Part shown: piece by piece, positions 4,775-62,936 of the stretch
How the letters are laid out: each line of letters starts with the position of its first letter
How positions within the stretch are numbered: position 1 is the first letter of the stretch
Assembly (NCBI RefSeq): GCF_042685085.1
Contig: NZ_JBHUMM010000007.1
Span: 177,846 to 241,845, forward strand
DNA length: 64,000 nucleotides
Reading direction: 5' to 3'
Source of the DNA: Marinicrinis sediminis
GTDB lineage: Bacteria; Bacillota; Bacilli; Paenibacillales; KCTC-33676
Program-made: the position numbers and the translations under genes
Notes under the pieces: generated by a model
What the model saw: only the letters and a program-made list of their open reading frames with translations
What the model was told of the DNA's origin: nothing
Database searches by the model: none

Positions 4775-6418
4775 ATGGATGGTGAACCCACATTGCGCAA
4801 AACCATGACCGCAAGCTTTATGACATTCGTATTATGGGTCAGTATGATTGGCATGGCCGTCACACCGGCCGCCGCGACCGCTCATGCTGACCAGACAGCT
4901 CAACCCGTAGTAGCCGATGAGAAATTGGCGGAGTGGATACACAGCGAGCTTTTACTCCCTGCAGACGCACCGGTTACGACAGATGATATCGCGATTTTGA
5001 CGGAGCTTCATATCGACGAGACGATGAACGTTGCCTCGTTGTCTGGGCTGGAGAACGCTACATTTCTGCAAGAACTGACCGTGCGTGGAAATAGGATCAG
5101 CCGTCTCACACCCCTAGCCCATCTGACAAATCTGCGTGTGCTGGATGTATCCGATAATCCGGTTCAGGATCTGAGTCCGCTATTGCAAATGCCCGCGCTG
5201 GAAACGGTACATATGAGCAGCGATATGATCTCTGATTCAGCTGACACGGTCAAACAATTGAGAGACAAGGGCATTCGGATTGTGGAACCTGTTAACGAAC
5301 CTGAGCATCCTTCCCGTCCCGCAATCCAGGTTTTCAACAATACCGAACCTGTTTCCTTCACCAAAGATCCTGTCATCATGAAGGGGACCACGATGGTGCA
5401 GTTCCGTCCTTTGTTTGAAACCTTCGGGATGGACGTTGAATGGGACGCTGCAACCCGCACCGTAACCGGAAAAAAGGAACAGCTCCTGATTGAGCTCACC
5501 ATGGACAGTCGCACTGCGAAAGTTAATGGCCAGCTTGTCTCCCTGCCGGTTGCCCCCCTTCTTCTTGACGGACATACGATGATTCCGCTTCGCTTCGTTG
5601 GAGAAGCAACGGGTCGCCGGGTGCTGTGGGACGGCGAGACGCAAACCATTGACATCTACACGAGCATTACCTCCATTAATCTCGAAATCCTGTACGCCGA
5701 TGATACCCGATACGAGGGTGAGAGACGGGACGGGGTTCCGCATGGGAAAGGAACCTTTACGCATAAAGGACAGATTTTCTATGAAGGCGAAGTCAGAGAC
5801 GGGATGATTGAAGGCCAAGGTAAAATGTATGATGTCATCTACCCCGCCTCCTACTATGAAGGAACTTTTGTGAACAACCGTTATCACGGTGAAGGGAAGC
5901 TCGTATACGGCAATGGACATTATTATATCGGTCCGTTTGTAGATGGAAACCGGGAAGGCGAAGGCAAGATGTATGACGATACGGACACCCTGCTCTATTC
6001 CGGCATGTTTCATGAAAATGCCTATAGTGGAAGCGGCATCGGTTATATGAACAACTACATGTATGAGGGAATGTATGCGAAAGGGACCTTCGAAGGATCA
6101 GGCAAGATGTATTATCAGGGGCGTCTGGTCTTTGAAGGAGAGTGGTCTCAGGGTGAGCGCAAGAACGGGAAGATGTATTTCTTCGGCAGCCTTATTTATG
6201 AAGGCAGCTTCGAAAATGATTACCAGCACGGCTTCGGTGTATTCTATGATGAGTCCGGCACCGTCCTCTATCGCGGACAAGTCGTACAAGGGGAGAAAAC
6301 CGGTGTTGGCATCCTTTATTATGAGAATAGGGACCGCTACATCGGCGAAGTCTTGAAGGGCGAACCCGTTGGACAAGGAGTACGGAAATCGGCAGATGGT
6401 ACGATCAAGTCACACTAG
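4775..6418 (+). CDS. Secreted multi-domain protein: signal peptide, leucine-rich repeats, copper-amine-oxidase-N-terminal-like domain, C-terminal MORN repeats
   Basis: The ORF track starts at 4532, but the plausible start is the internal ATG at 4775 (MDGEPTLRKTMTASFMTFVLWVSMIGMAVTPAAATAHA is a signal peptide). LRR (LTNLRVLDVSDNPVQDLSPL). CuAO-N-like stretch (KGTTMVQFRPLFETFGMDVEWDAATRTVTGKK...IPLRFV). Many MORN-like YEGE/YxGxxxxGxxxGxG repeats. Confidence 0.7.
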   Translation: MDGEPTLRKTMTASFMTFVLWVSMIGMAVTPAAATAHADQTAQPVVADEKLAEWIHSELLLPADAPVTTDDIAILTELHIDETMNVASLSGLENATFLQELTVRGNRISRLTPLAHLTNLRVLDVSDNPVQDLSPLLQMPALETVHMSSDMISDSADTVKQLRDKGIRIVEPVNEPEHPSRPAIQVFNNTEPVSFTKDPVIMKGTTMVQFRPLFETFGMDVEWDAATRTVTGKKEQLLIELTMDSRTAKVNGQLVSLPVAPLLLDGHTMIPLRFVGEATGRRVLWDGETQTIDIYTSITSINLEILYADDTRYEGERRDGVPHGKGTFTHKGQIFYEGEVRDGMIEGQGKMYDVIYPASYYEGTFVNNRYHGEGKLVYGNGHYYIGPFVDGNREGEGKMYDDTDTLLYSGMFHENAYSGSGIGYMNNYMYEGMYAKGTFEGSGKMYYQGRLVFEGEWSQGERKNGKMYFFGSLIYEGSFENDYQHGFGVFYDESGTVLYRGQVVQGEKTGVGILYYENRDRYIGEVLKGEPVGQGVRKSADGTIKSH

Positions 6419-6461
6419 AACGTTTAGAAGAGATCGACGTATTTAAGCGAATCTGCCATAA

Positions 6462-6499
6462 AACAAACCCGACCATGCGGTAGCTGGTCGGGTTTGTTC
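6462..6499. terminator. Bidirectional terminator between convergent genes
   Basis: A 13-bp stem AACAAACCCGACC/GGTCGGGTTTGTT with an 11-nt loop. T-rich on both sides. Confidence 0.55.
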
Positions 6500-6507
6500 G
6501 TTCCATG

Positions 6508-7863
6508 TTATTTATATTTATGCTGATCTTTCACACTGACTCTTCGTTGTCCGGCAAGTCGTCTTGCTGCCGGGACAATGATCGGTTCGGGTTCACCCGC
6601 TTCAGTCATCTTGGCTATCAGCCGTGTCCTCAGTTCTTCCAGTACGGGCTGATAAGGGTCCATGCCAATCAAATTCACCAACTCATACGGATCTGAATGA
6701 AGATCGTACAAGAATAACTCCTCATACTGATTCGATCCTGCATCCATGACGGGATCTTTGTCCGGCGCATGAACCGCATATTTCCAACGCTCTGTCCGGA
6801 TCGCTCGGCCAACTTGTGTTTCACTGATTTGAACCAGCACTTCTGATGGCCAGTCGCAGGACTTCCTTTGAACAAGGGGCAGCAGGGAGTGACCCTGCAT
6901 CTGCTCCGGAACGGGAATGCCCGCTGCATCCAGCAAAGTTGGGGGAAGATCAATCAGGCTGACCAGTTCATTGACCTGCCCTCCCCGATTAAAGACGGAG
7001 CCGCAAATCGCGGCAGGAATACGAATGGAGCTTTCATGACAGGAGCGTTTATACTCGGTATTTCTCGTCTTGAAATGACACCCGTGGTCCGATGTAAACA
7101 AGAGGATCGTGTTCTCCGACAATTGCAAGCTTTTCAGTGCATCTCGTATGCGGCCCAATGCTTCATCCAGTCTCTTCACCATGCCATAATAACCGCCCAA
7201 GTGCTGATGGCTGGTTCCTCCCAAAGCCGCCAGATCTGGCGGACACCAACGTCCGGTATACGACTCTTCATAACCCTCAGGAGCCGGATAATGATCGGAA
7301 TGATTCTGATGATGCGGCTCCAGATAGGATACCATGAGGAAAAACGGATCATCCTGATGCTGATCGATATATCGGATCGCTGCATCGGTCATCGCATCTA
7401 CCCGATAACCAGCCAATTTAATGGATTCGTTGCGATGATTGTATAGAACCGTATCATATGCATCCGATGAAAACTCCAACACGTTGGCCGCCAGCCAATC
7501 CTCGTATCCCCCTCGCTTTCGCTCAGGAACAGGTTCCTCATCTGCCAGGTGCCACTTGCCAATATAGCCCGTCCGATAACCCGCTTCCTTGAAATAGTGG
7601 GCCATCGTCTTGCTTTCTTTTGGCAACGGAATCGCGTTGCGATAGCAGCCTGTGGTGGTGGCATACTGTCCCGTTTGCAGACAGGACCTGGCGGGGCCAC
7701 AGACGGGCTGACTGGTGAAGGTATGGGCAAGATGCGTCCCCTGCCGGGCCATGCGGTCAAAGTTCGGTGTCAGATTCAACGGGTTGCCATGTACACCCGT
7801 TGTGTCCCACCGCTGCTGATCGGTAAAAAATACGATCACGTTTGGTTGCTGCTGTTTATTCAA
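6508..7863 (-). CDS. Formylglycine-dependent sulfatase (arylsulfatase family)
   Basis: 451 aa. N-terminal NVIVFFTDQQRWD. The CxPxR signature is at PVCGPARSCLQTGQY. GTHLAHTFTS is also present. Confidence 0.85.
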   Translation of the reverse strand: MNKQQQPNVIVFFTDQQRWDTTGVHGNPLNLTPNFDRMARQGTHLAHTFTSQPVCGPARSCLQTGQYATTTGCYRNAIPLPKESKTMAHYFKEAGYRTGYIGKWHLADEEPVPERKRGGYEDWLAANVLEFSSDAYDTVLYNHRNESIKLAGYRVDAMTDAAIRYIDQHQDDPFFLMVSYLEPHHQNHSDHYPAPEGYEESYTGRWCPPDLAALGGTSHQHLGGYYGMVKRLDEALGRIRDALKSLQLSENTILLFTSDHGCHFKTRNTEYKRSCHESSIRIPAAICGSVFNRGGQVNELVSLIDLPPTLLDAAGIPVPEQMQGHSLLPLVQRKSCDWPSEVLVQISETQVGRAIRTERWKYAVHAPDKDPVMDAGSNQYEELFLYDLHSDPYELVNLIGMDPYQPVLEELRTRLIAKMTEAGEPEPIIVPAARRLAGQRRVSVKDQHKYK

Positions 7864-7974
7864 GCTGATCCTCTCCTCTACTGCCTCTCTTATCCACGGG
7901 ATTGCGATCCTGATCCCAGGGTCTGTCTGGTTATTGCACCTGCATGGTCATGGCTTCCATGCCATTCATGCGTT

Positions 7975-9429
7975 CTATGGGCTCAGCGTCCACTGTACAT
8001 TGGACCCGACCCAGCCCGTGGAGCCCAGGTCTACATTGCCCGTAACAGGGTCGTAATGCAGTCTTCCACTCGAACCTGCTCCGAGATTGTCGATGTAATA
8101 TTTGCCGTTCCCTGCGGCATACAGTCTCCACTTGACGTTATTGCCGGTTTTGGTCGTTGAAACGGTGTCTACATTGCCCGTAGCAGGGTCGTAATGCAAA
8201 CGTCCTGACGTACCACCAGCATCATTATCAAGATAGAAATACATATCGTGTTCGGTGCTTTTCAGCTTCCAGGTCACCTGAGTACCTGACATCGTAACGG
8301 AAACGGTATCGACATTTCCTGTCCCGGCATCCCGGTTCATTCGTCCATTCGCTGCGCCGCCTACACTATCTACGGTCTTGGAACTTTGTCCGGTACTCCA
8401 TTGTCCAGTCGCCGCATCTAGTTGGAAAGAATCATAGTAATCCAGATAGATGGAGCTGCCACTGAATTGAATCGGCAGCCATACGTACGTGGAATCTCCC
8501 AGATAATTGGAATCGTGACGGTCGCCCACATAAATGTAAGAGGTCGTGGCACTGCCGTTCACGACAAGAATGTCGCTAGGCTGGGACTCATACGTAACTG
8601 AATTTCCGATATTTTGCATGGCACTCCAGCCACTCTGCACCGAACTGGAGGTCGCATATTTCATTTGATTGGCATTCCAGCCTGTCACACCCGATGTAAG
8701 CAGATAGTAGGTGGAGTTGGCTTTGAACATGACCGGTGCTTCTCTTCCTTCCAAGGCACGCGAACCACTTACAGAGCTTAGATAATCACTGGATAATTGA
8801 TCGATACAGATCGAACGTCCGGAATGGCCGTTTGCATTGACATTTTCTGCATAGACGAGGTAGGCCGTTCCGTCATCGTCCTGGAACAACGATAAATCTG
8901 CCGCTTCTCCACCCCACGGGGTCAGGTATTTCTCAAATGTAAAGTGCCCATCGATCGTATCGCTCGTCGCGATGGCAGCATATTTGGCGCCATTGACTTT
9001 GCGTTTCATGTACATGACGTATTTGCCGGTGCTCTGATTATAAATAACACTTGGTCTGGAGCCCGTTCCTCCGCTCGCAGCATCCGGCATGTCGTTGATA
9101 GTCAGTGCATCATTTACGTATTCCCAGTTCTTCAAAACGGTAGATCGATAGCTTTTGATCGTCCGGAAGACATTGTCATATACCCCTGTGCCATTCTCTC
9201 TCTGAGTACCAAATACATAATAATAACTGCCTACCTTGATGAAGCTCATCCCATGTGCGTCGATCGTATTGTTCGTGGTGTCATACCATGGAATGCCATT
9301 CGTCTTTGTTTCCACCTGGGCGGCCTGTACCATCAACGTACCAAACAGGGACATCACCAGCAGTAGCGACAGCACGACTTTGAATCCTTTTCTGGTTGTC
9401 GTTGTTTTGCTTGCATTGTGCAACATCAA
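7975..9429 (-). CDS. Secreted glycoside hydrolase, GH43-like five-bladed propeller (family uncertain), with C-terminal ricin-B/CBM13-like QxW repeats
   Basis: 484 aa. Signal peptide (KVVLSLLLVMSLFGTLMVQAAQV). N-terminal furanosidase-propeller-like motifs (DAHGMSFIKVGSYYYVFGT). Three C-terminal repeats of GRLHYDP(A/V)TGNVD...(QVTW/NVKW/NVQW). Confidence 0.65.
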   Translation of the reverse strand: MMLHNASKTTTTRKGFKVVLSLLLVMSLFGTLMVQAAQVETKTNGIPWYDTTNNTIDAHGMSFIKVGSYYYVFGTQRENGTGVYDNVFRTIKSYRSTVLKNWEYVNDALTINDMPDAASGGTGSRPSVIYNQSTGKYVMYMKRKVNGAKYAAIATSDTIDGHFTFEKYLTPWGGEAADLSLFQDDDGTAYLVYAENVNANGHSGRSICIDQLSSDYLSSVSGSRALEGREAPVMFKANSTYYLLTSGVTGWNANQMKYATSSSVQSGWSAMQNIGNSVTYESQPSDILVVNGSATTSYIYVGDRHDSNYLGDSTYVWLPIQFSGSSIYLDYYDSFQLDAATGQWSTGQSSKTVDSVGGAANGRMNRDAGTGNVDTVSVTMSGTQVTWKLKSTEHDMYFYLDNDAGGTSGRLHYDPATGNVDTVSTTKTGNNVKWRLYAAGNGKYYIDNLGAGSSGRLHYDPVTGNVDLGSTGWVGSNVQWTLSP

Positions 9430-15814: not shown

Positions 15815-15848
15815 ATGAAAAAAGGTTTCGCCCGAGGAGCGAAACCTC
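15815..15848 (-). terminator. Rho-independent terminator after the NUDIX gene
   Basis: Stem AGGTTTCGC/GCGAAACCT with loop CCGAGGA. It is followed on the minus strand by UUUUUUCAUUC. Confidence 0.6.
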
Positions 15849-15861
15849 TATTTTTCATAAA

Positions 15862-16266
15862 TCAGGCTTCTGGCAACCGGCTCTGACTTGCAGCGAGCGC
15901 CGATACAAATGGACGATCCGCCGGGGCAAACAGATAGTGAGTCAGCGCTATGGGTTCTACCCAATCACACGCATCATGATCAACTAACTCTATTTCTCCC
16001 GCTATATATTTGGCCGTGTATGCGATCAGGCGTATGGCTGTATCCCCTTCCGCATGCTTCTGCATCCCGAAAAAAGCAACAGGTTCAATCTGTATATTCA
16101 TTTCTTCTAGCAGTTCTCTCTTCAAGCAAGCCTCTACCGATTCCCCCTGCTCGATCTTCCCGCCAGGAAATTCCCATAGCCCCCCCTGCGCCTTTCCTGC
16201 CTTTCGCCTCGCAATCAGCACGTCTCCTTGTTCATTCGTAACAATGGCTGCCGCTACATCGATCAT
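15862..16266 (-). CDS. NUDIX hydrolase (MutT-like)
   Basis: 134 aa. Nudix box GGKIEQGESVEACLKRELLEEMNI. Confidence 0.8.
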   Translation of the reverse strand: MIDVAAAIVTNEQGDVLIARRKAGKAQGGLWEFPGGKIEQGESVEACLKRELLEEMNIQIEPVAFFGMQKHAEGDTAIRLIAYTAKYIAGEIELVDHDACDWVEPIALTHYLFAPADRPFVSALAASQSRLPEA

Positions 16267-16278
16267 AACCGATCCTCC

Positions 16279-19200
16279 CTATATGATTGCCTTATTTGCA
16301 GCAGGCAACATCGCAGGAGGCATCTCTTCCTTGAGTCTCCATACGAAGTTGACTGGTTTATTTCCATCGTGTTGCACGTATTCCGCTTCTCCCAAAAAGA
16401 CATAGGGAGCGGTGAACTTGTTCTCTTCCTTATAGGCTCTCACAAATAGCGCTACTCCTGTTCCCCTCTCTTGATGATGAATATATCTCTGAGCGGTGTT
16501 GGACTCTACAGATGTTCGACTCTGCGTTTGCCAATGAAACAAATGTTCATTTATCGCATAATCTTCATATTGTGTCGATGGTGAAAAATCCTTGTCCGAT
16601 TTATTCAAGGTAATGAAGAATAGATCCGTTTTTTTATCCGCCATGTACTTCACTCCTTCCCGAAAAGCAGGCGCACGCTCCTCATTCCAATATCCAAATG
16701 CAGCCAGAATCTGATCGACGGAATACGTGCAGTGCACTTCCAAAGGACAAGTGTACGGAAATTCATTTGGTTTACTTACGAAGTCAAGCTTTGACAATGT
16801 ATAAGAAAAAATATCGATGATTTCCTGTTTGAATGATTCTGCATCGAATATATGTTTCAAGGCCTCTTCTACATGGCTGTATCCTAGCTTGGCAGGCTCT
16901 GTGCGATAAAATGTATAATACAATATCTGTAGCATTAGCTGCTGTTCTTCCGTTGCTGGTTTTGTTCCCTGCTTCAAGTAGGACAGCAAGAATTGAAGGA
17001 GTCTTCTGGAGTTAAGATGTAGCAGAGCAGGGATTCGTTTAACCAAATCTGGACGGGTTTGTTCTGGTGTGGCCAACTCATAGAGCCCTGCTTCCGCTTT
17101 CAATCCATAAAAACTTCGTTGACCCATACGACCACCATAAAATTCATGCACACTTATCGCTTCGACTTGCAAAAAATGAGCCAACGTCAACGTAAAACCC
17201 GTATCGGACTCGAAATATTTCATTCTCTGAATCAGATTTCGACGTGTGATGGCGGCTCCTTGTACATTCGCCAGGATATACTGCCTCGCTTGCTTCTCCA
17301 GTTGAATAAAACTACCCCGAGGAAGATGAAAAAAGCCATGTTGAACATAATGTTTAATAGAGTGCCTCGTTTTTCCGGTTAAGGCCCTGAATTTATCCTG
17401 GAAGCGATACTTGTGATGAGCCTGTCCAATAAAATCAAGAACCGTTAAGCACTCCTTGTCCTCATGTAGACGCAGACCTCTGCCGAGCTGTTGCAGGAAG
17501 ACGGTCAAACTGTCCGTCGGGCGTAAAAATAAAAGTGTATTTACGCTTGGAATATCTATGCCTTCGTTATATAGATCAACGACGAAAATCATGCGTAATG
17601 CTCCATTTTCCAGCCTCGTTTTCGCCTGATGACGCTCTACTGCCGTTGAGTTTCCGTGCAATGCCACAGAAGGGATATCTGCTTCATTAAACATTTTCGC
17701 CATATACTTAGCATGATCTACCCCTACACAAAAACCTAATCCCTTCACCTGCTGCATATCGGTCGCATATTTTTCCATACTCTTTATAATTTGTATGACT
17801 CTTCGCTTGTTACGGGTGTATACATTCTCAAGCTCATTTAAATCGTAACCTTTTCTTGTCCACTTTATTTTGGATAAATCTACTTCATCCGTGACTGCAA
17901 AGTATTGAAAAGGGCAAAGCAACTTGCGATCAATCGCATCCGTTAGACGGATTTCTGCTGCAAAACTATCTCCAAAATAGGACAAAATTTCTTTACCATC
18001 CATTCGTTCAGGTGTAGCCGTTAGCCCTAGTAAAATGCTGGGTTGAACGAAAGCAAGCAGCTTTTGATAGGAAGGAGCAGCCGCATGATGAAACTCATCG
18101 ACAACGATGTAATCGTAAAAGGTCGGGGAGATTTTCTCTGTGAGATTCAGTGCGTTCATGCTTTGGATACTTATAAAAAGATGATCTATCGAATCGGCTT
18201 GATACTGGCCAACATGAAGTTCTCCAAAATTCAGGTCTTTCAATATGTAGCGAAAAGTATCTAAACTCTGTCTTAAAATCTCTTCTCGGTGAGCAACAAA
18301 CAGTAGTTTAGCATGAGGCTTTTGTTGGATAAAACGCTTATAATCAAAGGCAGAAACGACCGTCTTCCCTACTCCTGTTGCGGCAACGACGAGATTTCTG
18401 TTACGACCGTATATCTCCCGTTCCGCTTGCAACTTATCTAATATCTCTTTCTGATAGTCATAGGGCTTAATATCAAAAGGGAAAATCTTTGAGGAAGAAT
18501 CTATGGAATGGTCACACTGTAGGGCACTGCGTAGCTTATGATGTTCAGTCTCGTCTGCGGCACGAAATAATTTAAATTCACGGTCATTCCAATAACTTTC
18601 AAATGATGCCTCCATTTTCTTTAGAACATCACAAGCATCCTTTTCCGTTACTTTCAAATTCCATTCGAGTCCACTCGTCAGCGCAGGATTAGACAGATTT
18701 GATGAACCCACGTAAGCTGTGCTGAACCCCGTTTCCCTGTAAAACAAATAGGCTTTCGCATGCAACCTTGTGCGTTTTGTATCGTAAGAAATTTTCAATT
18801 CCGTATTGGACAACTTGCTTAACTCCATAATCGCCTTATAATCTGAAGCGTTCATGTAAGTCGTCGTAATCACTCTCAGCTTGCCACCCTCTGATGTAAA
18901 GCTCTCCAATTGATCCATGAGACAGCGTAATCCACTCCACTTGATAAATGATATCAAAAAATCGATTCGATCTGATGTCATAATCTCTCTCTTTAATTCA
19001 AACAGCATATTGGGTTCATAGTGAGATCCTGTAAATAAGGAGCTTTGAGAAAGTGGCGTGGTAGGACGAATAACCTCTTCATCCCGTACGGATCGAATAT
19101 GATTCAGTCTTGTATAAATATATGTGAGGATTTCTCCCTGTTCATCAAGTCTTAATTGCTCACATTCCTCTGGCCCAAGTGCATGCTTCAATGTCGCAAT

Positions 19201-19434
19201 CATGTCGTTGCAAGTTTGTACTTGAGCAAGCGTTAACGCTTCGTCACTACCGGGCTGTTCGCGAACCATCTTCAGGGCGCGTCGAGTCACAGTCGCAATG
19301 TAGTTGGACAAAAGTTTTCTTGCTTCCTCAACGTTCAATGGCTCTCTGCCAATCTGGTATTCATCTTCGTTTAGCATTAACAACTGCTGTGCGGTCAGTT
19401 TATTGATGACTTGCTCATAGATTCCTTGTTTCAT
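16279..19434 (-). CDS. PLD-family nuclease / SF2 DEAH helicase / C-terminal DUF3427 fusion protein
   Basis: 1051 aa. PLD HxK motif (HAKAYLF...YVGSSNLS). Helicase motif I VVAATGVGKTV, motif II VVDEFHHAAA, motif III GLTATPER. The helicase C-terminal region is followed by a ~300-aa C-terminal domain typical of DUF3427 helicases. Confidence 0.8.
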   Translation of the reverse strand: MKQGIYEQVINKLTAQQLLMLNEDEYQIGREPLNVEEARKLLSNYIATVTRRALKMVREQPGSDEALTLAQVQTCNDMIATLKHALGPEECEQLRLDEQGEILTYIYTRLNHIRSVRDEEVIRPTTPLSQSSLFTGSHYEPNMLFELKREIMTSDRIDFLISFIKWSGLRCLMDQLESFTSEGGKLRVITTTYMNASDYKAIMELSKLSNTELKISYDTKRTRLHAKAYLFYRETGFSTAYVGSSNLSNPALTSGLEWNLKVTEKDACDVLKKMEASFESYWNDREFKLFRAADETEHHKLRSALQCDHSIDSSSKIFPFDIKPYDYQKEILDKLQAEREIYGRNRNLVVAATGVGKTVVSAFDYKRFIQQKPHAKLLFVAHREEILRQSLDTFRYILKDLNFGELHVGQYQADSIDHLFISIQSMNALNLTEKISPTFYDYIVVDEFHHAAAPSYQKLLAFVQPSILLGLTATPERMDGKEILSYFGDSFAAEIRLTDAIDRKLLCPFQYFAVTDEVDLSKIKWTRKGYDLNELENVYTRNKRRVIQIIKSMEKYATDMQQVKGLGFCVGVDHAKYMAKMFNEADIPSVALHGNSTAVERHQAKTRLENGALRMIFVVDLYNEGIDIPSVNTLLFLRPTDSLTVFLQQLGRGLRLHEDKECLTVLDFIGQAHHKYRFQDKFRALTGKTRHSIKHYVQHGFFHLPRGSFIQLEKQARQYILANVQGAAITRRNLIQRMKYFESDTGFTLTLAHFLQVEAISVHEFYGGRMGQRSFYGLKAEAGLYELATPEQTRPDLVKRIPALLHLNSRRLLQFLLSYLKQGTKPATEEQQLMLQILYYTFYRTEPAKLGYSHVEEALKHIFDAESFKQEIIDIFSYTLSKLDFVSKPNEFPYTCPLEVHCTYSVDQILAAFGYWNEERAPAFREGVKYMADKKTDLFFITLNKSDKDFSPSTQYEDYAINEHLFHWQTQSRTSVESNTAQRYIHHQERGTGVALFVRAYKEENKFTAPYVFLGEAEYVQHDGNKPVNFVWRLKEEMPPAMLPAANKAII

Positions 19435-19470
19435 GTGATGCCTCCCCGACGAGATCCTTACCCCATCTCA

Positions 19471-20349
19471 TTATGCTTCATACCTGCGCGCATTTCCCCG
19501 AAACACTTCACGCACATGCCATTCCAGGTACAGATCTCCAGGTGCATACTCAGATCGAACCGGCTCCATGATGGCTTTTCCATGATAACGAAGAAGCCAC
19601 TCTTCAAAACCTCGGGTACCGTGCGCTTCCTCCGACACCCATAACCGATGTTGGTCTGTCACTGTAAATACACCGCGATCAAACAGTTTATGATGAAGCG
19701 AGCATAGTGCAAGACCGTTCTCTTCCCTGTCCGGTCCTCCCGATTGATGCCAGCGGATATGTGCCGCTTCCACGCCAACAAGTTGATGTCCCAGTCGCAC
19801 ATGAAACCCGCATACCGCGCAGGAATAAGCATACGCTCGAAGCACCCGCTCTCGAAATTTTGGATCTCGTGCCTTCTTCCGATAAGTATGGACGTGAAGG
19901 GCTAGACCGACAGCCTGTAAAATGTCTTCATGGATACTTTCAGGAAAATGATCCTCCAAAATATAGATAGCAGACTGACTAATCAGGGCCGGGTCTTGCT
20001 GCAACAACTCTTCAACCTCTGGCGTAAACTGTCCCTTGATGCCCTGATTTCGCAGTTGTTTATCCGTGAAGCTACTCCGATCCACTGTAGCACTAAGTTC
20101 CCAAATCCCATCCGTCGCAAGCCGAACAAAAGGCTCCTCAGGGTGATAGGAACGTCTTGGGGGGCCAAATTCTTTGAGCAATTGAGTCAGGGGCCCCTTT
20201 GCCTCTTCATAGGATACGACGATATTCTCTCCGCGTTGAAATCTGCCCAGTGCATAAAGGATGAACAGTGGCTTATGAGGAGCTCGCTGCCCATGTTTTT
20301 TCCATATCGATAAGTGTGACAGACGCCGCAACCATTCGTGTTTATCCAT
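19471..20349 (-). CDS. HNH endonuclease-family protein (predicted restriction-endonuclease-like, COG3440-type)
   Basis: 292 aa. C-terminal HNH (CAVCGFHVRLGHQLVGVEAAHIRWHQSGGPDREENGLALCSLHHKLFDRGVF). The N-terminal ~150 aa is a separate domain (QRAPHKPLFILYALGRFQRGE...). The gene lies 37 nt upstream of the helicase gene on the same strand. Confidence 0.7.
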   Translation of the reverse strand: MDKHEWLRRLSHLSIWKKHGQRAPHKPLFILYALGRFQRGENIVVSYEEAKGPLTQLLKEFGPPRRSYHPEEPFVRLATDGIWELSATVDRSSFTDKQLRNQGIKGQFTPEVEELLQQDPALISQSAIYILEDHFPESIHEDILQAVGLALHVHTYRKKARDPKFRERVLRAYAYSCAVCGFHVRLGHQLVGVEAAHIRWHQSGGPDREENGLALCSLHHKLFDRGVFTVTDQHRLWVSEEAHGTRGFEEWLLRYHGKAIMEPVRSEYAPGDLYLEWHVREVFRGNARRYEA

Positions 20350-22001: not shown

Positions 22002-22481
22002 TCAATAGCCCATTTCCCTTAAAATACCGGATAAGATGCGCAGACGTTCTGCAATAATTTCTCCATCCTCACTGAGCGCCTGATTAAACAACTGGATGTC
22101 CGATAAGATCTGTTCATTTTCTGTACAAACGGCTACATTCATCGCATCCCCTTGTAAACCCACCCGATCGATCGCCGGTTGCTCCGGATCATACAAGTTG
22201 TCATAGCGATAGGCCTCACGAAAATGTTGCAGGGTGCGACTGATTAAAATGGTCAGATCCAATACGCGATGCAACGGCAGTTCCTCAGACTGTCTGGACC
22301 ACTTTCCACCTGTATGACGCCATACCTTCGCAGAAATATCTACTCTTCCACGGTCATTCCACTGTGCCAGTCCAAGTGACAGGCCTTTGGCATCCGAATC
22401 CTGCGAGAATCGGCCATCTACTTTCTCATAGTCCTCCGATACGATCACAGGTTTATGCTTGAGGTTTGTTGGAATTTTCAT
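22002..22481 (-). CDS. Hypothetical protein
   Basis: 159-aa ORF with no recognisable motif. Same strand as, and downstream of, the small gene above. Confidence 0.45.
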   Translation of the reverse strand: MKIPTNLKHKPVIVSEDYEKVDGRFSQDSDAKGLSLGLAQWNDRGRVDISAKVWRHTGGKWSRQSEELPLHRVLDLTILISRTLQHFREAYRYDNLYDPEQPAIDRVGLQGDAMNVAVCTENEQILSDIQLFNQALSEDGEIIAERLRILSGILREMGY

Positions 22482-23655: not shown

Positions 23656-24813
23656 ATGATGAAGAATATCGCCCTGTATCCATTCAACAAAATTACGAAG
23701 GGTTTGATCAAATTCAGAGATTTGATCGATGCACGAATTGGTGCGGTCATCGACTTTACGATTGATTCTCGCGATCATGTGGAATGGAAACTATTACAAG
23801 AAGATAGTCTTGGTATTTTCCTTACGAACAATCTGGAGGAAGGACTGGAAGGGATCGATACCCTGATTTTGAATGATACGGGTACCCCTTTTGGCAATAG
23901 CCAATCTGCCTATCAGAAATTTGACCTGACCCAGATGTGGAGAAAGCTGGTCCTATACGCTGCCCATCGCGGCATTACCGTCATCAGCGTGCATGAAATT
24001 ACGGATGCGGATACCCGGCGCTGGCTGCAAGCACATGATATTGAACTGCATGTGGATCAGCAACTGAATGCAGACATGTTAAGTGAAATGAGCCAACATT
24101 ATAACCTGCAGGATGATACAGAAATCGGTACCTATCTCAAACACTTTGAGCTTGATCAACGACTGCTGGACAGCTCCCCTTCCATTTTAAAAGTAGCCAT
24201 TTTCGCAACGAGAGGTTGTTTAGGCAAATTCACGACCCAGATGAGCATATACCGGGAATTAACCCACAGGGGCAGGGCGACTACCGCGATTATCACGGAA
24301 CCGACTGCCTTTTTATTTCAGCAGCCCGGAGCAGATATTATGAAGTTTCTGTCTCAGCAAACCCTGGCCCAATACCCCTACTACATTCATGCACTCGTGC
24401 AAAAAGCCGAGCAAGCCGGAGCGGAGATTGTCCTGATGGCCGGACAGGGATCGTTGCTGCCAAACCATAACTTTATCATTGCTTCTACCAAACTCGCATA
24501 TCTGAGTGCCTATCAGCCGGATGTTACCTTGCTTGTCGTTGGCTATGATGACGACGATCGAATACAAGATTGCCTCGACGTGTTGCGAATCTATGGCAAT
24601 CAGAAAAAACCGCACAGGCTGCTGCTGCCTAATCGAATTGAAATTGGATTCGGGGAGTACGATATCCGATCTGAGGCAGAAATGAACGAACGGAAACAGG
24701 AACTTGAACGCAAATTCAATATAGAGGTGGAATTTGTCCTGCATGCAGACAAGGTTGTCGATGAGATGGAGGCATTAATCGATGAAAAAAAGATCACGGT
24801 CTCCGTTTCATAG
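23656..24813 (+). CDS. Uncharacterised-family protein, paralog A (tentatively DUF1611/DgcN-like; Rossmann-like N-terminal domain plus degenerate P-loop-like C-terminal domain)
   Basis: 385 aa. GAGGTG RBS. Conserved blocks shared with the downstream paralog: ALYPFNKITKGLIKFRDL, IFATRGCLGKFTTQMSIYRELTHRGR, ITEPTAFLFQQPGADIMKFL. Confidence 0.7.
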   Translation: MMKNIALYPFNKITKGLIKFRDLIDARIGAVIDFTIDSRDHVEWKLLQEDSLGIFLTNNLEEGLEGIDTLILNDTGTPFGNSQSAYQKFDLTQMWRKLVLYAAHRGITVISVHEITDADTRRWLQAHDIELHVDQQLNADMLSEMSQHYNLQDDTEIGTYLKHFELDQRLLDSSPSILKVAIFATRGCLGKFTTQMSIYRELTHRGRATTAIITEPTAFLFQQPGADIMKFLSQQTLAQYPYYIHALVQKAEQAGAEIVLMAGQGSLLPNHNFIIASTKLAYLSAYQPDVTLLVVGYDDDDRIQDCLDVLRIYGNQKKPHRLLLPNRIEIGFGEYDIRSEAEMNERKQELERKFNIEVEFVLHADKVVDEMEALIDEKKITVSVS

Positions 24814-24879
24814 CGATTTCCATGCGATCGTCTGCGCTCACATGACAATGCCGTCACCTAATTCAGGAAAAAGAGGTGA

Positions 24880-26025
24880 ATGCAAGGGATGTTGAATCAG
24901 GTTGCCTTGTACCCGTTTGATAAAATTACGCGTGGTCTCATCCGGTTTCGCGATTTGTTGCAGGTCGAGATTCGTTCCGTTATCGATTTTACATGTGACC
25001 ACACAGAGGATATTGGATCACGGCTAGGCGGTGAAACGACCGGCATTCCGATGACGAACGACATCGAAAAAGGCTTACAGCAAGTCGATATCCTGATTGT
25101 AAATGATCTGGGGAACAACCCTTTTGCCGATCCTGCCCATAACCTGGCGGAAAAATGGCGAACACTCGTCAAATGTGCGTATGAAAAAGGCATAACCATC
25201 ATCAGCCTGCATGAGATTGTGGAACCGGGAACGAAGCAATGGCTGCGTGCCCATGAGATTTCCCTTCAATTTGATGACCAGCTGGATCATGAGCTGCTGG
25301 CGGATATGGACATGCATCCTCTGCGTGGCAAGACAGAACTGGAAAGGTACTTTCGGCATTTGGAAGCGGATCATACGGGTTACACCTCGTCTCCTTCTTC
25401 CCTGCGTGTCGGAATTTTTGCCACCCGAGGTTGTTTGGGCAAATTCACGACTCAGATGAGTCTGTTTCGCCAATTGAAAAAAAGAGGAAGATCCGCTACC
25501 TCTATCATTACAGAACCGACCGCCTTTCTGTTCCAGCAGCCGAGTGCAGATATTTTCAAGTTCTTGGCTACCCAGACCATAGACCAATATCCCTATTATA
25601 TTCAAACCGTTGCGAAAAAAGCTGAGCAAGCCGGTTCGCCATATATTCTACTGGCCGGACAGGGCGCGCTGCTGCCTCACCATGACTTCCTGATTACCTC
25701 TAATCAGGTTGCTTATCTGAAAGCTTTCGATCCAGACGCCATATTGCTAGTGGTCGAATATGAGGATGATCAGAAAATTCGGGACAGTCTCGATTTCTTG
25801 CGTATATATGGCTATGAAAAGCCGATTCAACTGCTTCTTCCTGATCGAATGGAAACCGGTTTATCTGAGATTGTCTTTAAGACCCCCGCAGAGATGGCGC
25901 AGCGAAAACAGCAATTGGAAAGCCAGTTTGACATTCCCGTCGTTTATATCAAGCAGCCGGATCAAATAGCAGACCGTCTGGAACAATTGCGGGAACAGAA
26001 AGAACATGCCGCTGTCATGCTCTAG
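24880..26025 (+). CDS. Uncharacterised-family protein, paralog B of the upstream gene
   Basis: 381 aa. About 50-60% identical to paralog A by eye (ALYPFDKITRGLIRFRDL, IFATRGCLGKFTTQMSLFRQLKKRGR, ITEPTAFLFQQPSADIFKFL). The start may be the ATG at 24889. Confidence 0.7.
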   Translation: MQGMLNQVALYPFDKITRGLIRFRDLLQVEIRSVIDFTCDHTEDIGSRLGGETTGIPMTNDIEKGLQQVDILIVNDLGNNPFADPAHNLAEKWRTLVKCAYEKGITIISLHEIVEPGTKQWLRAHEISLQFDDQLDHELLADMDMHPLRGKTELERYFRHLEADHTGYTSSPSSLRVGIFATRGCLGKFTTQMSLFRQLKKRGRSATSIITEPTAFLFQQPSADIFKFLATQTIDQYPYYIQTVAKKAEQAGSPYILLAGQGALLPHHDFLITSNQVAYLKAFDPDAILLVVEYEDDQKIRDSLDFLRIYGYEKPIQLLLPDRMETGLSEIVFKTPAEMAQRKQQLESQFDIPVVYIKQPDQIADRLEQLREQKEHAAVML

Positions 26026-38910: not shown

Positions 38911-38925
38911 TGGAGGTTTGTTGAT

Positions 38926-39873: not shown

Positions 39874-40008
39874 GCATTAAGTCATCAGAGAGATATGAAT
39901 TGTTGATTTTCATTCATATCTCTCCTTCTATGGTTCTATGACTGATGACCTTTCGAAACCTAACTGTTTTCAAGTGAATAATATAATTCATATAGGTGGT
40001 GAATATTT

Positions 40009-47686: not shown

Positions 47687-47762
47687 TACTTAACCTCCAA
47701 TCTTTTATATATTTAGTAATAGAGGCTAGTTTGTAACATTTCGAAACAAACTAGCCTATAAT

Positions 47763-56477: not shown

Positions 56478-56571
56478 TATGTACTACCACCTTTTCAGGA
56501 AATGGTCCCTCTGATTCATTCGACATCTTCCAACTATTTTCCTGTTTATTATCAATTTCAACATTTTATTG

Positions 56572-57471: not shown

Positions 57472-57550
57472 GATTCCCCCTACTTTCTTACAAATATCTT
57501 AACAAAAACGCAAAATCGCCGGAATATCTCCGGCGAAAATGAAAGTTATT

Positions 57551-58426: not shown

Positions 58427-58430
58427 CTAA

Positions 58431-61907: not shown

Positions 61908-61909
61908 CT

Positions 61910-62797: not shown

Positions 62798-62936
62798 ATA
62801 TAGATCTTCCTCTCTTGAAATGAAAAATTACTCCTGGAGAGATACCTCCAGCAGTAATTATACATCAGTGCGCCAAAAAAAAACACCCTATTATCGGAAC
62901 GCACGTTCCTATTATTTTAGTTCATTTCCTCTTAAG

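What the first reader, a model, noticed from the sequence alone, without database searches (positions are those of the whole stretch)
15862..20349. HNH endonuclease, then PLD-nuclease/DEAH-helicase/DUF3427 giant, then NUDIX hydrolase: a co-directional trio resembling a defense operon
A 1051-aa protein combines an NgoFVII/PLD-type nuclease motif, a complete SF2 helicase core and a DUF3427 C-terminal domain. It is preceded (37-nt gap) by a COG3440-like HNH endonuclease with an extra N-terminal domain and followed (13-nt gap) by a Nudix enzyme. Helicase-plus-nuclease fusions with a separate HNH partner are typical of anti-phage systems (compare Hna, Hhe and Mokosh-like logic). The inclusion of a Nudix hydrolase, possibly acting on a nucleotide signal or cap, is unusual. 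The trio sits between housekeeping transporters with its own terminator.
Basis: inference. Interest (0 to 1): 0.55.

Follow-up and report, generated by a model that had tools for sequence, protein, structure and literature searches.

The report
Two modification-dependent nucleases plus Nudix
This three-gene cluster holds two already-known kinds of restriction enzyme that cut foreign DNA carrying chemical marks (sulfur on the backbone, methyl on cytosine), plus a small nucleotide-cleaning enzyme whose long-noticed pairing with the second nuclease is still unexplained.

Summary
The three minus-strand genes are real and intact: A (20349..19471), B (19434..16279) and C (16266..15862). They form one compact transcription-like unit ending in a strong terminator, and they are not a new three-part system.

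A is a member of the curated phosphorothioate-DNA restriction endonuclease family (SBD-HNH, SprMcrA/EcoWI type). NCBI already names it so in Marinicrinis sediminis.

[quoted passage not shown] It keeps 5 of the 6 modelled 5mC-pocket residues of SauUSI.

C is a MutT/NudG-clade Nudix. Its closest solved relative is E. coli NudG, a 5-methyl-dCTP pyrophosphatase.

Across 80 genomes, B is adjacent to such a Nudix in 34, in several gene orders and in unrelated flanks. A is nearby in only 10, on either side of the pair, and stands without a B-like gene in 10 of 11 A-centred contexts.

The SauUSI-Nudix linkage was noted in 2011 and the Nudix was shown dispensable for restriction in 2012. Its role is still open.

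My best inference is that it removes modified dCTP so the host does not mark, and then cut, its own DNA. In support, an unrelated MazG-like NTP pyrophosphatase is paired with a paralogous PLD-helicase.

Verdict: new members of known kinds, of moderate interest.

The parts
19471..20349 (-). Gene A: SBD-HNH phosphorothioate-DNA-dependent restriction endonuclease (292 aa)
   Evidence: NCBIfam NF045808 scores 377.9 bits against a cutoff of 180, full length. A 100% identical protein is named 'phosphorothioated DNA-binding restriction endonuclease [Marinicrinis sediminis]', with precomputed Pfam PF26340 and PF13391. PF26340 is named DNA-SBD_ScoMcrA.
19960..20349 (-). A, N-terminal sulfur-binding domain (about residues 1-130) with RAPHKP (22-27) and SYHPExPF (67-74)
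   Evidence: Residues 5-101 match the SprMcrA SBD structures 7cc9/7ccj/7ccd at E 3e-5. The motifs are invariant in 17 family members. They correspond to the HK and xP sulfur-cavity residues described in PMC6224610 and PMC7461809.
19660..19821 (-). A, HNH nuclease domain (residues 177-230)
   Evidence: Pfam HNH_2 47.6 bits. It matches the TagI structure 6ghs. C177, C180, H197, N211, C216, H219 and H220 are invariant.
19441..19447 (-). Shine-Dalgarno GGGGAGG, 6 nt before the ATG of B, inside the 36-nt A-B gap
   Evidence: Read directly from the sequence. No terminator-like site lies in the gap.
16279..19434 (-). Gene B: SauUSI-family ATP-dependent Type IV (modified-cytosine-dependent) restriction enzyme (1051 aa)
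   Evidence: PADLOC mREase_IV PDLC03659, E 1.8e-224, residues 121-1041 against profile 14-934 of 945. PDB 7CLG (SauUSI), E 3.2e-87, residues 145-1022 against 42-919.
19015..19434 (-). B, N-terminal extension (about residues 1-140), absent from SauUSI and from the PADLOC profile; predicted helical, function unknown
   Evidence: The alignments to SauUSI and to the PADLOC profile begin at residues 145 and 121. AF2 gives four helices (5-114) at pLDDT below 55, then a disordered segment 115-140. The segment is conserved in homologues, starting MKQG[LI]YEQ.
18589..18927 (-). B, PLD-family nuclease domain (residues 170-282; H225, K227)
   Evidence: Pfam PLDc_2 43.3 bits and RE_NgoFVII 40.4 bits. H225 and K227 are invariant.
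17467..18471 (-). B, SF2 helicase-like ATPase (ResIII 322-477, Helicase_C 560-656; GVGKT 354-358, DEFH 446-449, QQLGRGLR 648-655)
   Evidence: Pfam ResIII 125.4 bits and Helicase_C 45.8 bits. The motifs are invariant.
16309..16884 (-). B, DUF3427 / SRA-like target-recognition domain (residues 851-1042) with pocket residues Y930, F940, I941, D958, W968
   Evidence: Pfam DUF3427 106.9 bits. These residues align to SauUSI Y831, F841, I842, D858 and W868 (alignment; residues defined in PMC7913695). M829 aligns to V928. In the 9-sequence alignment A1 all are invariant. In the 45-sequence alignment A3, Y930 drops out of the >=90% lists while the others stay invariant or nearly so.
16273..16279 (-). 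Shine-Dalgarno GGGAGGA overlapping the stop codon of B, 6 nt before the ATG of C (12-nt gap)
   Evidence: Read directly from the sequence.
15862..16266 (-). Gene C: MutT/NudG-clade Nudix hydrolase (134 aa); Nudix box at residues 36-58, APAD at 114-117
   Evidence: Pfam NUDIX 76.2 bits. The best solved relative is E. coli Orf135/NudG, 2RRK, E 1.3e-18. PADLOC PDC-S07 matches at E 6.1e-43 over the full length. APAD and the catalytic E/R residues are invariant in the SauUSI-linked Nudix proteins and in NudG.
15821..15849 (-). Intrinsic terminator (13-bp stem, 3-nt loop, T-run) closing the unit

Best explanation
The locus is a horizontally acquired mini defence islet in Marinicrinis sediminis (Paenibacillaceae). 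It combines two autonomous modification-dependent restriction enzymes with one accessory enzyme, probably transcribed together.

Gene A is an SBD-HNH enzyme. Its N-terminal sulfur-binding domain docks on Rp-phosphorothioate links in incoming DNA, and its HNH domain cuts nearby.

Gene B is a SauUSI-type motor nuclease. Its C-terminal SRA-like DUF3427 domain flips out and reads 5-methyl- or 5-hydroxymethyl-cytosine. This switches on the SF2 ATPase, which translocates along the DNA, and the PLD nuclease domains then cleave the modified DNA.

Together A and B cover backbone-modified and base-modified invaders. ScoMcrA covers the same two marks in one polypeptide.

Gene C is the conserved Nudix partner of SauUSI-like enzymes and is not part of the cutting machinery. 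My inference, at about 0.4 probability, is that it hydrolyses modified pyrimidine dNTPs (5-methyl-dCTP, 5-hydroxymethyl-dCTP). These would be made by phage enzymes or recycled from shredded foreign DNA. Removing them stops their incorporation into the host chromosome, where they would create targets for B.

Shown here: the family identities, the domain and motif integrity, the operon-like layout and the comparative linkage pattern. Inferred: the substrates of A and B (by homology), co-transcription, and the role of C.
For: Identity
- A: NF045808, 378 bits against a cutoff of 180. SBD and HNH structure matches. Invariant HK / xP and HNH residues.
- B: PADLOC mREase_IV, E 1.8e-224. SauUSI 7CLG, E 3e-87, over 878 residues. 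Five of the six modelled 5mC-pocket residues are identical.
- C: the best solved relative is NudG. NudG is a CTP/dCTP/5-methyl-dCTP pyrophosphatase with kcat/Km 3e5 M-1 s-1.

Layout
- The gaps are 36 and 12 nt, with strong SD sites. There is no internal terminator, and a strong terminator follows C.
- G+C is 0.41-0.445 across 16-19 kb, against about 0.48-0.52 in the flanks.

Linkage of B and C
- A Nudix lies within the locus in 34 of 80 B loci. In 25 it is directly downstream on the same strand, with small gaps (3-25 nt in the 24 measurable cases).
- Other arrangements occur in other clades: upstream on the same strand, downstream on the opposite strand, +2 and +3. The Nudix is upstream in metagenome loci L097 and L108 and in S. 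aureus.
- The flanks are different in nearly every locus and never those of the window.

A is independent
- A is found in 10 of 80 B loci, on either side of the pair.
- 10 of 11 A-centred contexts lack a B-like gene.

Role of C
- Deleting the Nudix next to sauUSI did not relieve restriction in S. aureus.
- An unrelated all-alpha NTP pyrophosphatase (PRA-PH/MazG-like) immediately precedes a paralogous 815-aa PLD-helicase in 16 of 17 cases. The same gene also precedes HNH_4 nucleases and two A homologues. A HIT hydrolase precedes a third A homologue.
- C matches the PADLOC defence-candidate model PDC-S07.
Against: - There is no experimental evidence for this organism.
- No convincing sigma-70 promoter was found upstream of A, so co-transcription is unproven.
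- C scores below the NCBIfam cutoffs for both NudG (105.7 against 156) and MutT (86.9 against 97.9), so its substrate cannot be assigned by homology.
- Two of the four NudG residues that I recall as important for 5-methyl-dCTP (R72, R77; not verified here) are not conserved in C.
- 46 of 80 B loci have no Nudix in the locus.
- The closest metagenomic Nudix (L081, 63% identity) stands alone.
- Only 2 of 41 adequately flanked Nudix loci have a B-like neighbour. The linkage is therefore one-directional and dispensable.
- The S. aureus Nudix deletion was viable, with no reported toxicity.
- The same window carries an Ssp-type phosphorothioation locus. That would conflict with A unless the specificities differ.
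Confidence: 0.75

Rival explanations
1. One integrated three-component defence system. The HNH protein and the PLD-helicase act together as sensor and effector, and the Nudix processes a nucleotide signal or cap.
For: The packing is tight and the terminator is shared. The exact A-B-C order recurs in non-sister loci L004, L013 and L014 and, truncated, in L002. B-C-A occurs in L017, L019, L025 and L048. An independent A / PLD-helicase-DUF3427 / Nudix cluster exists in Ammoniphilus resinae (L168).
Against: A is absent from 70 of 80 B loci and changes side relative to the pair. 10 of 11 A-centred contexts lack a B-like gene. Both families contain enzymes that restrict on their own, SauUSI and EcoWI/SprMcrA. 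The S. aureus Nudix is not needed for restriction. There is no PADLOC match to Hna, Hhe or Mokosh.
Confidence: 0.08
2. The Nudix is itself an anti-phage effector. It destroys phage-specific modified dNTPs (for example 5hm-dCTP). This starves modified-DNA phages, or forces them to make unmodified DNA that other systems can cut. On this view it does not protect the host from B.
For: C matches the PADLOC single-gene defence candidate PDC-S07 at E 6e-43. Close orthologues occur without B (L081). It shares the predicted biochemistry of the NudG relative.
Against: This does not explain why the gene is so often adjacent to SauUSI-like genes specifically, in several gene orders. Lowering phage modification would also reduce the targets for B. 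No anti-phage phenotype for PDC-S07 was found in the papers read.
Confidence: 0.2
3. The Nudix is an ordinary MutT-type antimutator (8-oxo-dGTPase) that merely hitch-hikes next to B.
For: C scores close to the MutT models (TIGR00586 86.9 bits; 1MUT E 1.5e-12). Most related Nudix genes are not next to B.
Against: Adjacency occurs in 34 of 80 B loci with unrelated flanks and several orientations. The residue aligned to MutT N119 (own knowledge of MutT) is Asp, as in NudG, and the APAD motif is invariant in all linked copies. An unrelated NTP pyrophosphatase fold is paired with the paralogous PLD-helicase.
Confidence: 0.12
4. The Nudix supports catalysis by B, by removing pyrophosphate or nucleotide products of ATP/dATP hydrolysis (the suggestion of Xu et al. 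2011).
For: This was proposed in PMC3141236. SauUSI needs ATP or dATP.
Against: SF2 ATPases release phosphate; the SauUSI ATPase assay measured released inorganic phosphate. Nudix enzymes are not inorganic pyrophosphatases (established knowledge). Deleting the Nudix did not relieve restriction in S. aureus. Purified SauUSI works alone in vitro.
Confidence: 0.03
5. B is a housekeeping repair helicase (RadD/XPB-like) with conserved synteny, not a defence gene.
For: There are weak NCBIfam matches to RadD (94 bits) and XPB (28 bits) over the helicase core only.
Against: Those scores are far below the cutoffs (720 and 610). The full-length match is to SauUSI and to the Type IV REase models. The flanks are not conserved. 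G+C is lower than in the flanks. Neighbours elsewhere are defence genes: Mrr_cat, NERD, a Schlafen-type helicase and HNH.
Confidence: 0.02

Closest known systems
SauUSI of Staphylococcus aureus (Type IV, ATP-dependent; PDB 7CLG) with its neighbouring Nudix gene
   Same: The order PLD nuclease, SF2 ATPase, helical coupler, SRA-like DUF3427 is collinear over residues 145-1022. HxK, Walker A, DExH and 5 of the 6 modelled 5mC-pocket residues are conserved. There is no adjacent methyltransferase. A MutT/Nudix gene is linked.
   Different: B has an extra conserved N-terminal segment of about 140 residues, predicted helical at low confidence, which SauUSI and the PADLOC profile lack. M829 of SauUSI is V928 in B. 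The Nudix is downstream of B here but upstream of sauUSI in S. aureus. The sequence specificity (S5mCNGS in SauUSI) cannot be inferred for B.
SBD-HNH phosphorothioate-dependent endonucleases (SprMcrA, EcoWI, Bsp305I and relatives), and ScoMcrA
   Same: The two-domain SBD plus HNH architecture of about 290 aa. A scores above the curated NCBIfam cutoff. The sulfur-cavity HK and P residues and the HNH zinc/catalytic residues are invariant.
   Different: A lacks the SRA domain of ScoMcrA. In this locus 5mC reading is supplied by the separate protein B. The residue equivalent to ScoMcrA Y164 is E72 and is variable (E/H/Q) in the family, so the PT sequence context recognised is unknown. A is only distantly similar to the solved SBDs (E 3e-5). 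A possible PT writer (Ssp) lies in the same window. Lutz et al. (PMC7461809) reported dnd clusters near such enzymes in under 3.6% of cases.
E. coli NudG (Orf135), the CTP/dCTP/5-methyl-dCTP pyrophosphohydrolase; PDB 2RRK
   Same: It is the best solved relative of C (E 1.3e-18, full length). They share the Nudix box, the LWEF-GGK segment and the C-terminal APAD motif.
   Different: C scores 105.7 bits, below the NudG equivalog cutoff of 156. It aligns at 35% identity. NudG R72 and R77 are not conserved in C. I am not aware that nudG is linked to a Type IV enzyme in E. coli (own knowledge, not tested).
Pool-sanitising or pool-reshaping NTP pyrophosphatases: human DCTPP1 (all-alpha, acts on 5-methyl-dCTP) and phage T4 gp56 dCTPase
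   Same: The logic is the same: controlling which cytosine nucleotide enters DNA by hydrolysing the unwanted triphosphate. DCTPP1 and 5-methyl-dCTP appear in PMC4491611, listed. T4 gp56 is own knowledge. The MazG-like partner of the 815-aa PLD-helicase paralogue is also an all-alpha NTP pyrophosphatase (Pfam PRA-PH). Placing it in the same superfamily as DCTPP1 is own knowledge.
   Different: This is an analogy of function only. No activity has been measured for C or for the MazG-like proteins, and C has a different fold (Nudix).

Membership tests
SauUSI-family Type IV restriction enzyme | N-terminal PLD-family nuclease domain with the HxK catalytic motif | tested here: met
   PLDc_2 43.3 bits and RE_NgoFVII 40.4 bits at residues 170-282. 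H225 and K227 are invariant in 45 homologues.
SauUSI-family Type IV restriction enzyme | SF2 helicase-like ATPase (Walker A, DExH, motif VI) | tested here: met
   ResIII 125.4 bits and Helicase_C 45.8 bits. GVGKT 354-358, DEFH 446-449 and QQLGRGLR 648-655 are invariant.
SauUSI-family Type IV restriction enzyme | C-terminal DUF3427 / SRA-like target-recognition domain with a 5mC-binding pocket | tested here: met
   DUF3427 106.9 bits. Y930, F940, I941, D958 and W968 align to SauUSI Y831, F841, I842, D858 and W868, and M829 aligns to V928. The SauUSI pocket itself is a model in the source paper.
SauUSI-family Type IV restriction enzyme | Collinear full-length similarity to SauUSI and to the REBASE-derived Type IV profile | tested here: met
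   7CLG, E 3.2e-87, residues 145-1022 against 42-919. PDLC03659, E 1.8e-224, residues 121-1041.
SauUSI-family Type IV restriction enzyme | No cognate methyltransferase (modification-dependent, not R-M) | tested here: met
   The neighbours are A, C, TctC and a Na/Ca exchanger. The only DNA methyltransferase found among the window ORFs that were scanned is an N6-adenine type at 45041-47686, in a separate island.
SauUSI-family Type IV restriction enzyme | ATP-dependent cleavage of 5mC/5hmC DNA | not testable with these tools
   This needs biochemistry or an in vivo restriction assay.
SBD-HNH phosphorothioate-dependent restriction endonuclease (NF045808) | Score above the curated family cutoff over the full length | tested here: met
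   377.9 bits against a cutoff of 180, residues 5-284 against profile 2-284 of 284.
SBD-HNH phosphorothioate-dependent restriction endonuclease (NF045808) | Sulfur-binding domain with the conserved cavity residues (His, Lys/Arg, Pro) | tested here: met
   H25, K26 and P73 are invariant. These are the residues called the most conserved in PMC6224610 and PMC7461809. Precomputed Pfam PF26340 is listed for the identical protein and is named DNA-SBD_ScoMcrA. It matches the SBD structures 7cc9/7ccj/7ccd. The equivalence of H25/K26 to ScoMcrA H116/R117 rests on the motif, not on a structural superposition.
SBD-HNH phosphorothioate-dependent restriction endonuclease (NF045808) | Intact HNH nuclease | tested here: met
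   HNH_2 47.6 bits. C177, C180, H197, N211, C216, H219 and H220 are invariant.
SBD-HNH phosphorothioate-dependent restriction endonuclease (NF045808) | Host lacks a PT-writing system of the same specificity | tested here: inconclusive
   An Ssp-type locus (SspB, SspC, a PP-loop SspD-like protein, SspF, SspG, SspH) lies at 47.7-62.8 kb in the same window. No SspA was seen. The specificities are unknown.
SBD-HNH phosphorothioate-dependent restriction endonuclease (NF045808) | PT-dependent DNA cleavage | not testable with these tools
   This needs assays on dnd+/ssp+ DNA.
NudG (pyrimidine dNTP / 5-methyl-dCTP pyrophosphatase) equivalog | Score above the NCBIfam PRK10546 cutoff | tested here: not met
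   105.7 bits against a cutoff of 156. MutT TIGR00586 also fails, at 86.9 against 97.9. C is therefore filed only as a member of the MutT/NudG clade.
NudG (pyrimidine dNTP / 5-methyl-dCTP pyrophosphatase) equivalog | Nudix box catalytic residues and the C-terminal APAD motif | tested here: met
   G36, E42, R50, E51, E54 and E55, and A114-P115-A116-D117, are invariant across the linked Nudix proteins and NudG.
NudG (pyrimidine dNTP / 5-methyl-dCTP pyrophosphatase) equivalog | Preference for 5-methyl-dCTP | not testable with these tools
   This needs enzyme kinetics.
PADLOC candidate PDC-S07 | Full-length match to the candidate's HMM | tested here: met
   E 6.1e-43, residues 1-127 against profile 6-131 of 135. 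The candidate has no demonstrated function in the papers read.
   None of the 25 PADLOC families matched by B at E <= 0.01, nor those matched by A or C, is Hna, Hhe or Mokosh. That these models are in PADLOC-DB v2.0.0 is my recollection, not checked.

The most novel reading that the evidence does not exclude
Modification-dependent nucleases are recurrently paired with a small nucleotide hydrolase of varying fold. A Nudix accompanies SauUSI-like enzymes. An all-alpha MazG/PRA-PH-like enzyme accompanies a paralogous PLD-helicase, HNH_4 nucleases and some SBD-HNH enzymes. A HIT enzyme accompanies another SBD-HNH enzyme.

These hydrolases would form a general 'pool-sanitising immunity' layer. They would destroy modified nucleotides (5m/5hm-dCTP, thio-nucleotides) that come from phage enzymes or from shredded foreign DNA. 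That would stop the host writing the foreign mark into its own chromosome and then being cut by its own Type IV enzyme. In this window the Nudix C would play that role for B, and conceivably for A as well.
Probability: 0.35. Interest if true: 0.7.

Novelty: new member of a known kind. Interest (0 to 1): 0.38.

Why it matters
For annotation: a 'DUF3427 domain-containing protein' can be renamed a SauUSI-family Type IV restriction enzyme. The trio should be read as two independent modified-DNA barriers, which is relevant to anyone trying to transform Paenibacillaceae with Dcm+ or dnd+ DNA.

For biology: the only open element is the Nudix. Its linkage to SauUSI-like genes has been unexplained since 2011. 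The comparative pattern here turns that into a concrete, cheap test of whether Type IV restriction needs nucleotide-pool hygiene to avoid autoimmunity. The pattern has three parts: several gene orders, unrelated flanks, and an unrelated NTP pyrophosphatase fold on a paralogous nuclease.

If true, this would add a self-protection principle for defence systems that have no methyltransferase. It would also explain why such small hydrolases turn up in defence islands (PADLOC PDC-S07).

Tried and rejected
1. Structure of B (AF2, 45-sequence alignment). Mean pLDDT was 62.5 and pTM 0.35, and the N-terminal extension scored below 55. I judged it too poor for a fold search, so none was run, and the extension remains uncharacterised.

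2. Promoter scan. There is no convincing sigma-70 site in the 106-nt region upstream of A. Read-through from the Na/Ca exchanger gene or a weak promoter cannot be distinguished.

3. Reciprocal linkage test seeded with the Nudix. Only 3 of 80 metagenome loci (2 of 41 with adequate flanks) carry a B-like gene, so the idea that this Nudix family is dedicated to SauUSI-like enzymes is rejected. The link runs from B to the Nudix only.

4. Shared synteny. No related locus shares the window's flanking genes, so vertical inheritance of the neighbourhood is rejected.

5. Reading the MazG-like plus 815-aa PLD-helicase pair as part of this window: tblastn shows it is absent.

6. MADS as the identity of the 45-63 kb island: the NCBIfam MADS2 and MADS7 scores are far below the cutoffs, while the PADLOC SspF, SspG and SspH matches are full length.

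7. Literature searches for a resolved function of the SauUSI-linked Nudix or of PDC-S07. Nothing was found beyond the 2011 note and the 2012 deletion.

8. The specificity residues of NudG (E33, R72, R77, D118) come from my memory of Iida et al. 2005 and could not be checked in the library. They are used only as a lead.

Full report
OBSERVATION

The three ORFs exist on the minus strand exactly where stated: A at 20349..19471 (292 aa), B at 19434..16279 (1051 aa) and C at 16266..15862 (134 aa). The gaps are 36 nt and 12 nt.

- A: HNH_2 at residues 177-230.
- B: PLDc_2/RE_NgoFVII 170-282, ResIII 322-477, Helicase_C 560-656 and DUF3427 851-1042.
- C: NUDIX.

The flanking genes are a TctC tricarboxylate-transporter receptor and a Na/Ca exchanger. 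G+C drops to 0.41-0.445 across 16-19 kb, against about 0.48-0.52 on either side. That fits horizontal acquisition.

WHAT EACH GENE IS

Gene A scores 377.9 bits on NCBIfam NF045808, 'phosphorothioated DNA-binding restriction endonuclease', where the cutoff is 180, and the match is full length. The identical protein is already named that way for Marinicrinis sediminis and carries precomputed Pfam PF26340 plus HNH_2. PF26340 is named DNA-SBD_ScoMcrA. Its N-terminus matches the solved SprMcrA sulfur-binding domains, and its C-terminus matches the TagI HNH domain. In 17 family members the motifs RAPHKP (22-27) and SYHPExPF (67-74) are invariant, as are the HNH/zinc residues C177, C180, H197, N211, C216, H219 and H220. 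The His-Lys pair and the Pro are the sulfur-cavity residues that the ScoMcrA and EcoWI papers describe as the most conserved. The Tyr164 position is variable there and here.

Gene B matches the PADLOC Type IV methyl-directed REase model PDLC03659 at E 1.8e-224 over residues 121-1041. It matches the SauUSI crystal structure 7CLG at E 3.2e-87 over residues 145-1022. The SauUSI paper shows that its DUF3427 domain has an SRA fold. The paper models a 5mC pocket of Y831, F841, I842 and W868, with D858 hydrogen-bonding the base and M829 filling the gap in the helix. In the alignment these correspond to Y930, F940, I941, W968, D958 and V928 of B. Five of the six are identical. All are invariant in the 9-sequence alignment. 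In the 45-sequence alignment all but Y930 remain invariant or nearly so. HxK, Walker A, DEFH and motif VI are also invariant. B has one difference from SauUSI, a conserved N-terminal extension of about 140 residues. AF2 predicts it as four helices, but at low confidence.

Gene C is a MutT/NudG-clade Nudix. Its best solved relative is E. coli Orf135/NudG (2RRK, E 1.3e-18). NudG is a CTP/dCTP/5-methyl-dCTP pyrophosphatase. C scores below the NCBIfam equivalog cutoffs for both NudG and MutT, so its substrate is not assigned by homology. It matches the PADLOC single-gene defence candidate PDC-S07 at E 6e-43.

LAYOUT

Strong Shine-Dalgarno sequences precede B (GGGGAGG) and C (GGGAGGA, overlapping the stop codon of B). 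No hairpin separates the genes. A 13-bp hairpin with a T-run follows C. No convincing promoter was found upstream of A. Co-transcription is therefore likely but not shown.

COMPARATIVE GENOMICS

I fetched 80 genomic loci encoding B homologues at 58-71% identity. They come from Paenibacillaceae, Bacillaceae, Clostridium and one methanogen.

B-centred view:
- A C-like Nudix is present in 34 loci. In 25 it lies directly downstream on the same strand.
- An NJ tree shows that the downstream arrangement dominates one Paenibacillaceae clade, so those counts are not independent. Other clades show the Nudix upstream on the same strand (L068, L075), downstream on the opposite strand (L032, L058, L061), or two to three genes away (L062, L077).
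- Clustering of all neighbouring ORFs shows that the flanks are almost all unique. None matches the window's flanks. The pair therefore moves as a unit.

A is different:
- It occurs in only 10 of 80 loci.
- It lies upstream of B in L004, L013 and L014, and truncated in L002.
- It lies downstream of C in L017, L019, L025 and L048.
- It is seven genes away in L001, and is divergent and on the opposite strand in L071.

A-centred view, 11 homologues at 58-61% identity:
- Ten have no B-like gene within 4-6 kb.
- They sit among housekeeping genes or next to other defence genes: GmrSD_N, JetD_C, pPIWI_RE and NERD-UvrD.
- One (Ammoniphilus resinae, L168) rebuilds the trio with a 937-aa SauUSI-like gene and a Nudix on the opposite strand.

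Nudix-centred view, 80 metagenome loci at 33-63% identity:
- Only 3 have a B-like neighbour, or 2 of the 41 loci with at least 1.5 kb on both sides.
- The closest Nudix (L081) stands alone.

Taken together, B recruits a Nudix often and in many ways. A is an independent gene that sometimes lands beside the pair. The Nudix family is not dedicated to B.

LITERATURE

- Xu et al. 2011 noted that a MutT/Nudix gene is linked to SauUSI and to at least 60 SauUSI-like genes. They left its function open.
- Monk et al. 2012 deleted the Nudix gene upstream of sauUSI in S. aureus Newman. The strain did not become transformable, so the Nudix is not required for restriction.
- I found no later paper that resolves its role. 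A 2025 review of restriction biology does not mention it.
- PDC-S07 appears only in surveys.

MECHANISM

For A and B the mechanisms follow from their families and are inferred by homology. A binds Rp-phosphorothioate through the SBD and cuts with the HNH domain. B reads 5mC or 5hmC through the SRA-like domain, which activates the SF2 motor, and the dimeric PLD nuclease then cleaves the DNA. Together they cover backbone-modified and base-modified invaders. ScoMcrA covers the same two marks in a single protein.

For C, I favour a pool-sanitising role, at about 0.4 probability. It would hydrolyse 5-methyl- or 5-hydroxymethyl-dCTP so that these are not incorporated into host DNA, where they would create targets for B. 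Five observations support this.
- The nearest characterised relative is a 5-methyl-dCTP pyrophosphatase.
- The Nudix is dispensable for restriction.
- The linkage recurs in several gene orders.
- The APAD motif shared with NudG is invariant in the 16 SauUSI-linked copies aligned. It appears in only 10 of 80 of the wider Nudix set.
- There is a convergent case. In 17 of the related loci a second PLD-SF2 protein of about 815 aa lies nearby. It is 33% identical to B and has a different C-terminal domain. In 16 of those 17 cases it is immediately preceded by a 108-aa PRA-PH/MazG-type all-alpha NTP pyrophosphatase. The same small gene also precedes HNH_4 nucleases and two A homologues, and a HIT hydrolase precedes a third A homologue.

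Four observations count against it.
- 46 of 80 B loci lack a Nudix.
- A close Nudix orthologue stands alone.
- C is not a NudG equivalog.
- No toxicity was reported for the S. aureus deletion.

RIVALS

- An integrated three-part system: about 0.08.
- The Nudix as a direct anti-phage effector on modified dNTPs: about 0.2.
- A hitch-hiking MutT-type antimutator: about 0.12.
- A helper for catalysis by B: about 0.03.
- B as a housekeeping helicase: refuted.

COMPARISON AND NOVELTY

A and B pass every sequence-level membership feature of their families that could be tested. Activities could not be tested. C fails the NudG and MutT equivalog cutoffs, so it is filed only at clade level. None of the PADLOC families matched is Hna, Hhe or Mokosh. 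The locus is therefore made of new members of known kinds, in a combination that recurs in a minority of genomes. The only open question is the role of the Nudix. The convergent MazG-like and HIT pattern is, as far as my searches show, undescribed.

SIDE OBSERVATIONS

- The same window carries an Ssp-type phosphorothioation/defence island at about 44-63 kb, beside the tmRNA gene. The 3' region of the tmRNA gene is repeated three times. SspABCD writes single-stranded PT (PMC8092258). A PT writer and a PT-dependent nuclease in one genome is a potential conflict that deserves a check.
- A methanogen, Methanimicrococcus blatticola, carries a B homologue at 58% identity.

Noticed in passing
window 44150-62797 (minus strand): A low-GC island (0.29-0.43) with an Ssp-type phosphorothioation/defence locus. 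PADLOC matches:
- SspB / DUF4007, 61910-62797, 166 bits
- SspC, 58431-61907, 373 bits
- a PP-loop SspD-like protein with the motif FSGGAGS, 57551-58426, 36 bits
- SspF, 54639-56477, 773 bits
- SspG, 53102-54676, 650 bits
- SspH, 47763-53153, 2261 bits

A DUF6997 protein lies at 56572-57471. The SspH gene is followed by an N6_Mtase + Methylase_S + HATPase_c fusion (45041-47686) and a 296-aa unknown protein.

No SspA is encoded in the locus. A PT writer 27 kb from the PT-dependent nuclease A is a possible self-targeting conflict unless the motifs differ.
   Followed up: partly
window 62932-63946: A tmRNA gene lies at 63583-63946 on the minus strand. Three direct copies of a 131-195-nt segment, spaced about 203-223 nt apart, run from 62932 to 63598 and overlap the 3' end of the tmRNA gene. 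They look like att remnants of serial island integration at ssrA, next to the Ssp island.
   Followed up: partly
Related loci, for example L012:~5200-8000, L016, L027, L055:15801-18239 (not in the window): A two-gene module recurs near B homologues. It consists of a 108-aa PRA-PH/MazG-like all-alpha NTP pyrophosphatase directly followed by an ~815-aa PLD + SF2 protein. That protein is 33% identical to B and has a C-terminal domain that is not DUF3427. The pyrophosphatase precedes it in 16 of 17 cases. In L008, L012, L016 and L027 the module sits directly upstream of B, and in the last three the Nudix follows B, giving a four-gene cluster.
   Followed up: partly
L164:3939-5197, L162:5687-6870, L165:5608-6873, L058 and L069: Small nucleotide hydrolases also sit immediately upstream of other modification-dependent or HNH nucleases. 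A MazG-like gene precedes A homologues in L164 and L162. A HIT-family gene precedes an A homologue in L165. A MazG-like gene precedes a 330-aa HNH_4 protein in L058 and L069.
   Followed up: partly
L168:1195-8206 (Ammoniphilus resinae): An independent version of the trio: a 722-aa PLD-helicase without DUF3427, then an A homologue, then a 937-aa PLD-helicase-DUF8090-DUF3427 protein of SauUSI size that lacks the N-terminal extension, then a Nudix on the opposite strand.
   Followed up: no
window 19015-19434 (B residues 1-140): A conserved N-terminal extension (starting MKQG[LI]YEQ) is absent from SauUSI and from the PADLOC Type IV profile. It is predicted as four helices plus a disordered linker, at pLDDT below 55. 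Its function is unknown.
   Followed up: partly
L079 (Methanimicrococcus blatticola DSM 13328): A methanogenic archaeon carries a full-length B homologue at 58% identity, with no adjacent Nudix. This suggests recent inter-domain transfer.
   Followed up: no
window 37981-40860 (plus strand): A very low-GC stretch (0.32-0.36) holds three ORFs of about 300 aa. They have no Pfam family at E <= 1e-4 apart from a sub-threshold 3D-domain match. Their origin and function are unknown.
   Followed up: no
window 22002-22481 and 23656-26025: A DUF6530 protein matches its Pfam model over the full length (275 bits). Two adjacent ORFs of similar length and visibly similar sequence follow (385 and 381 aa). 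Only the first was scanned, and it has a weak DUF1611 P-loop match. These were not examined further.
   Followed up: no
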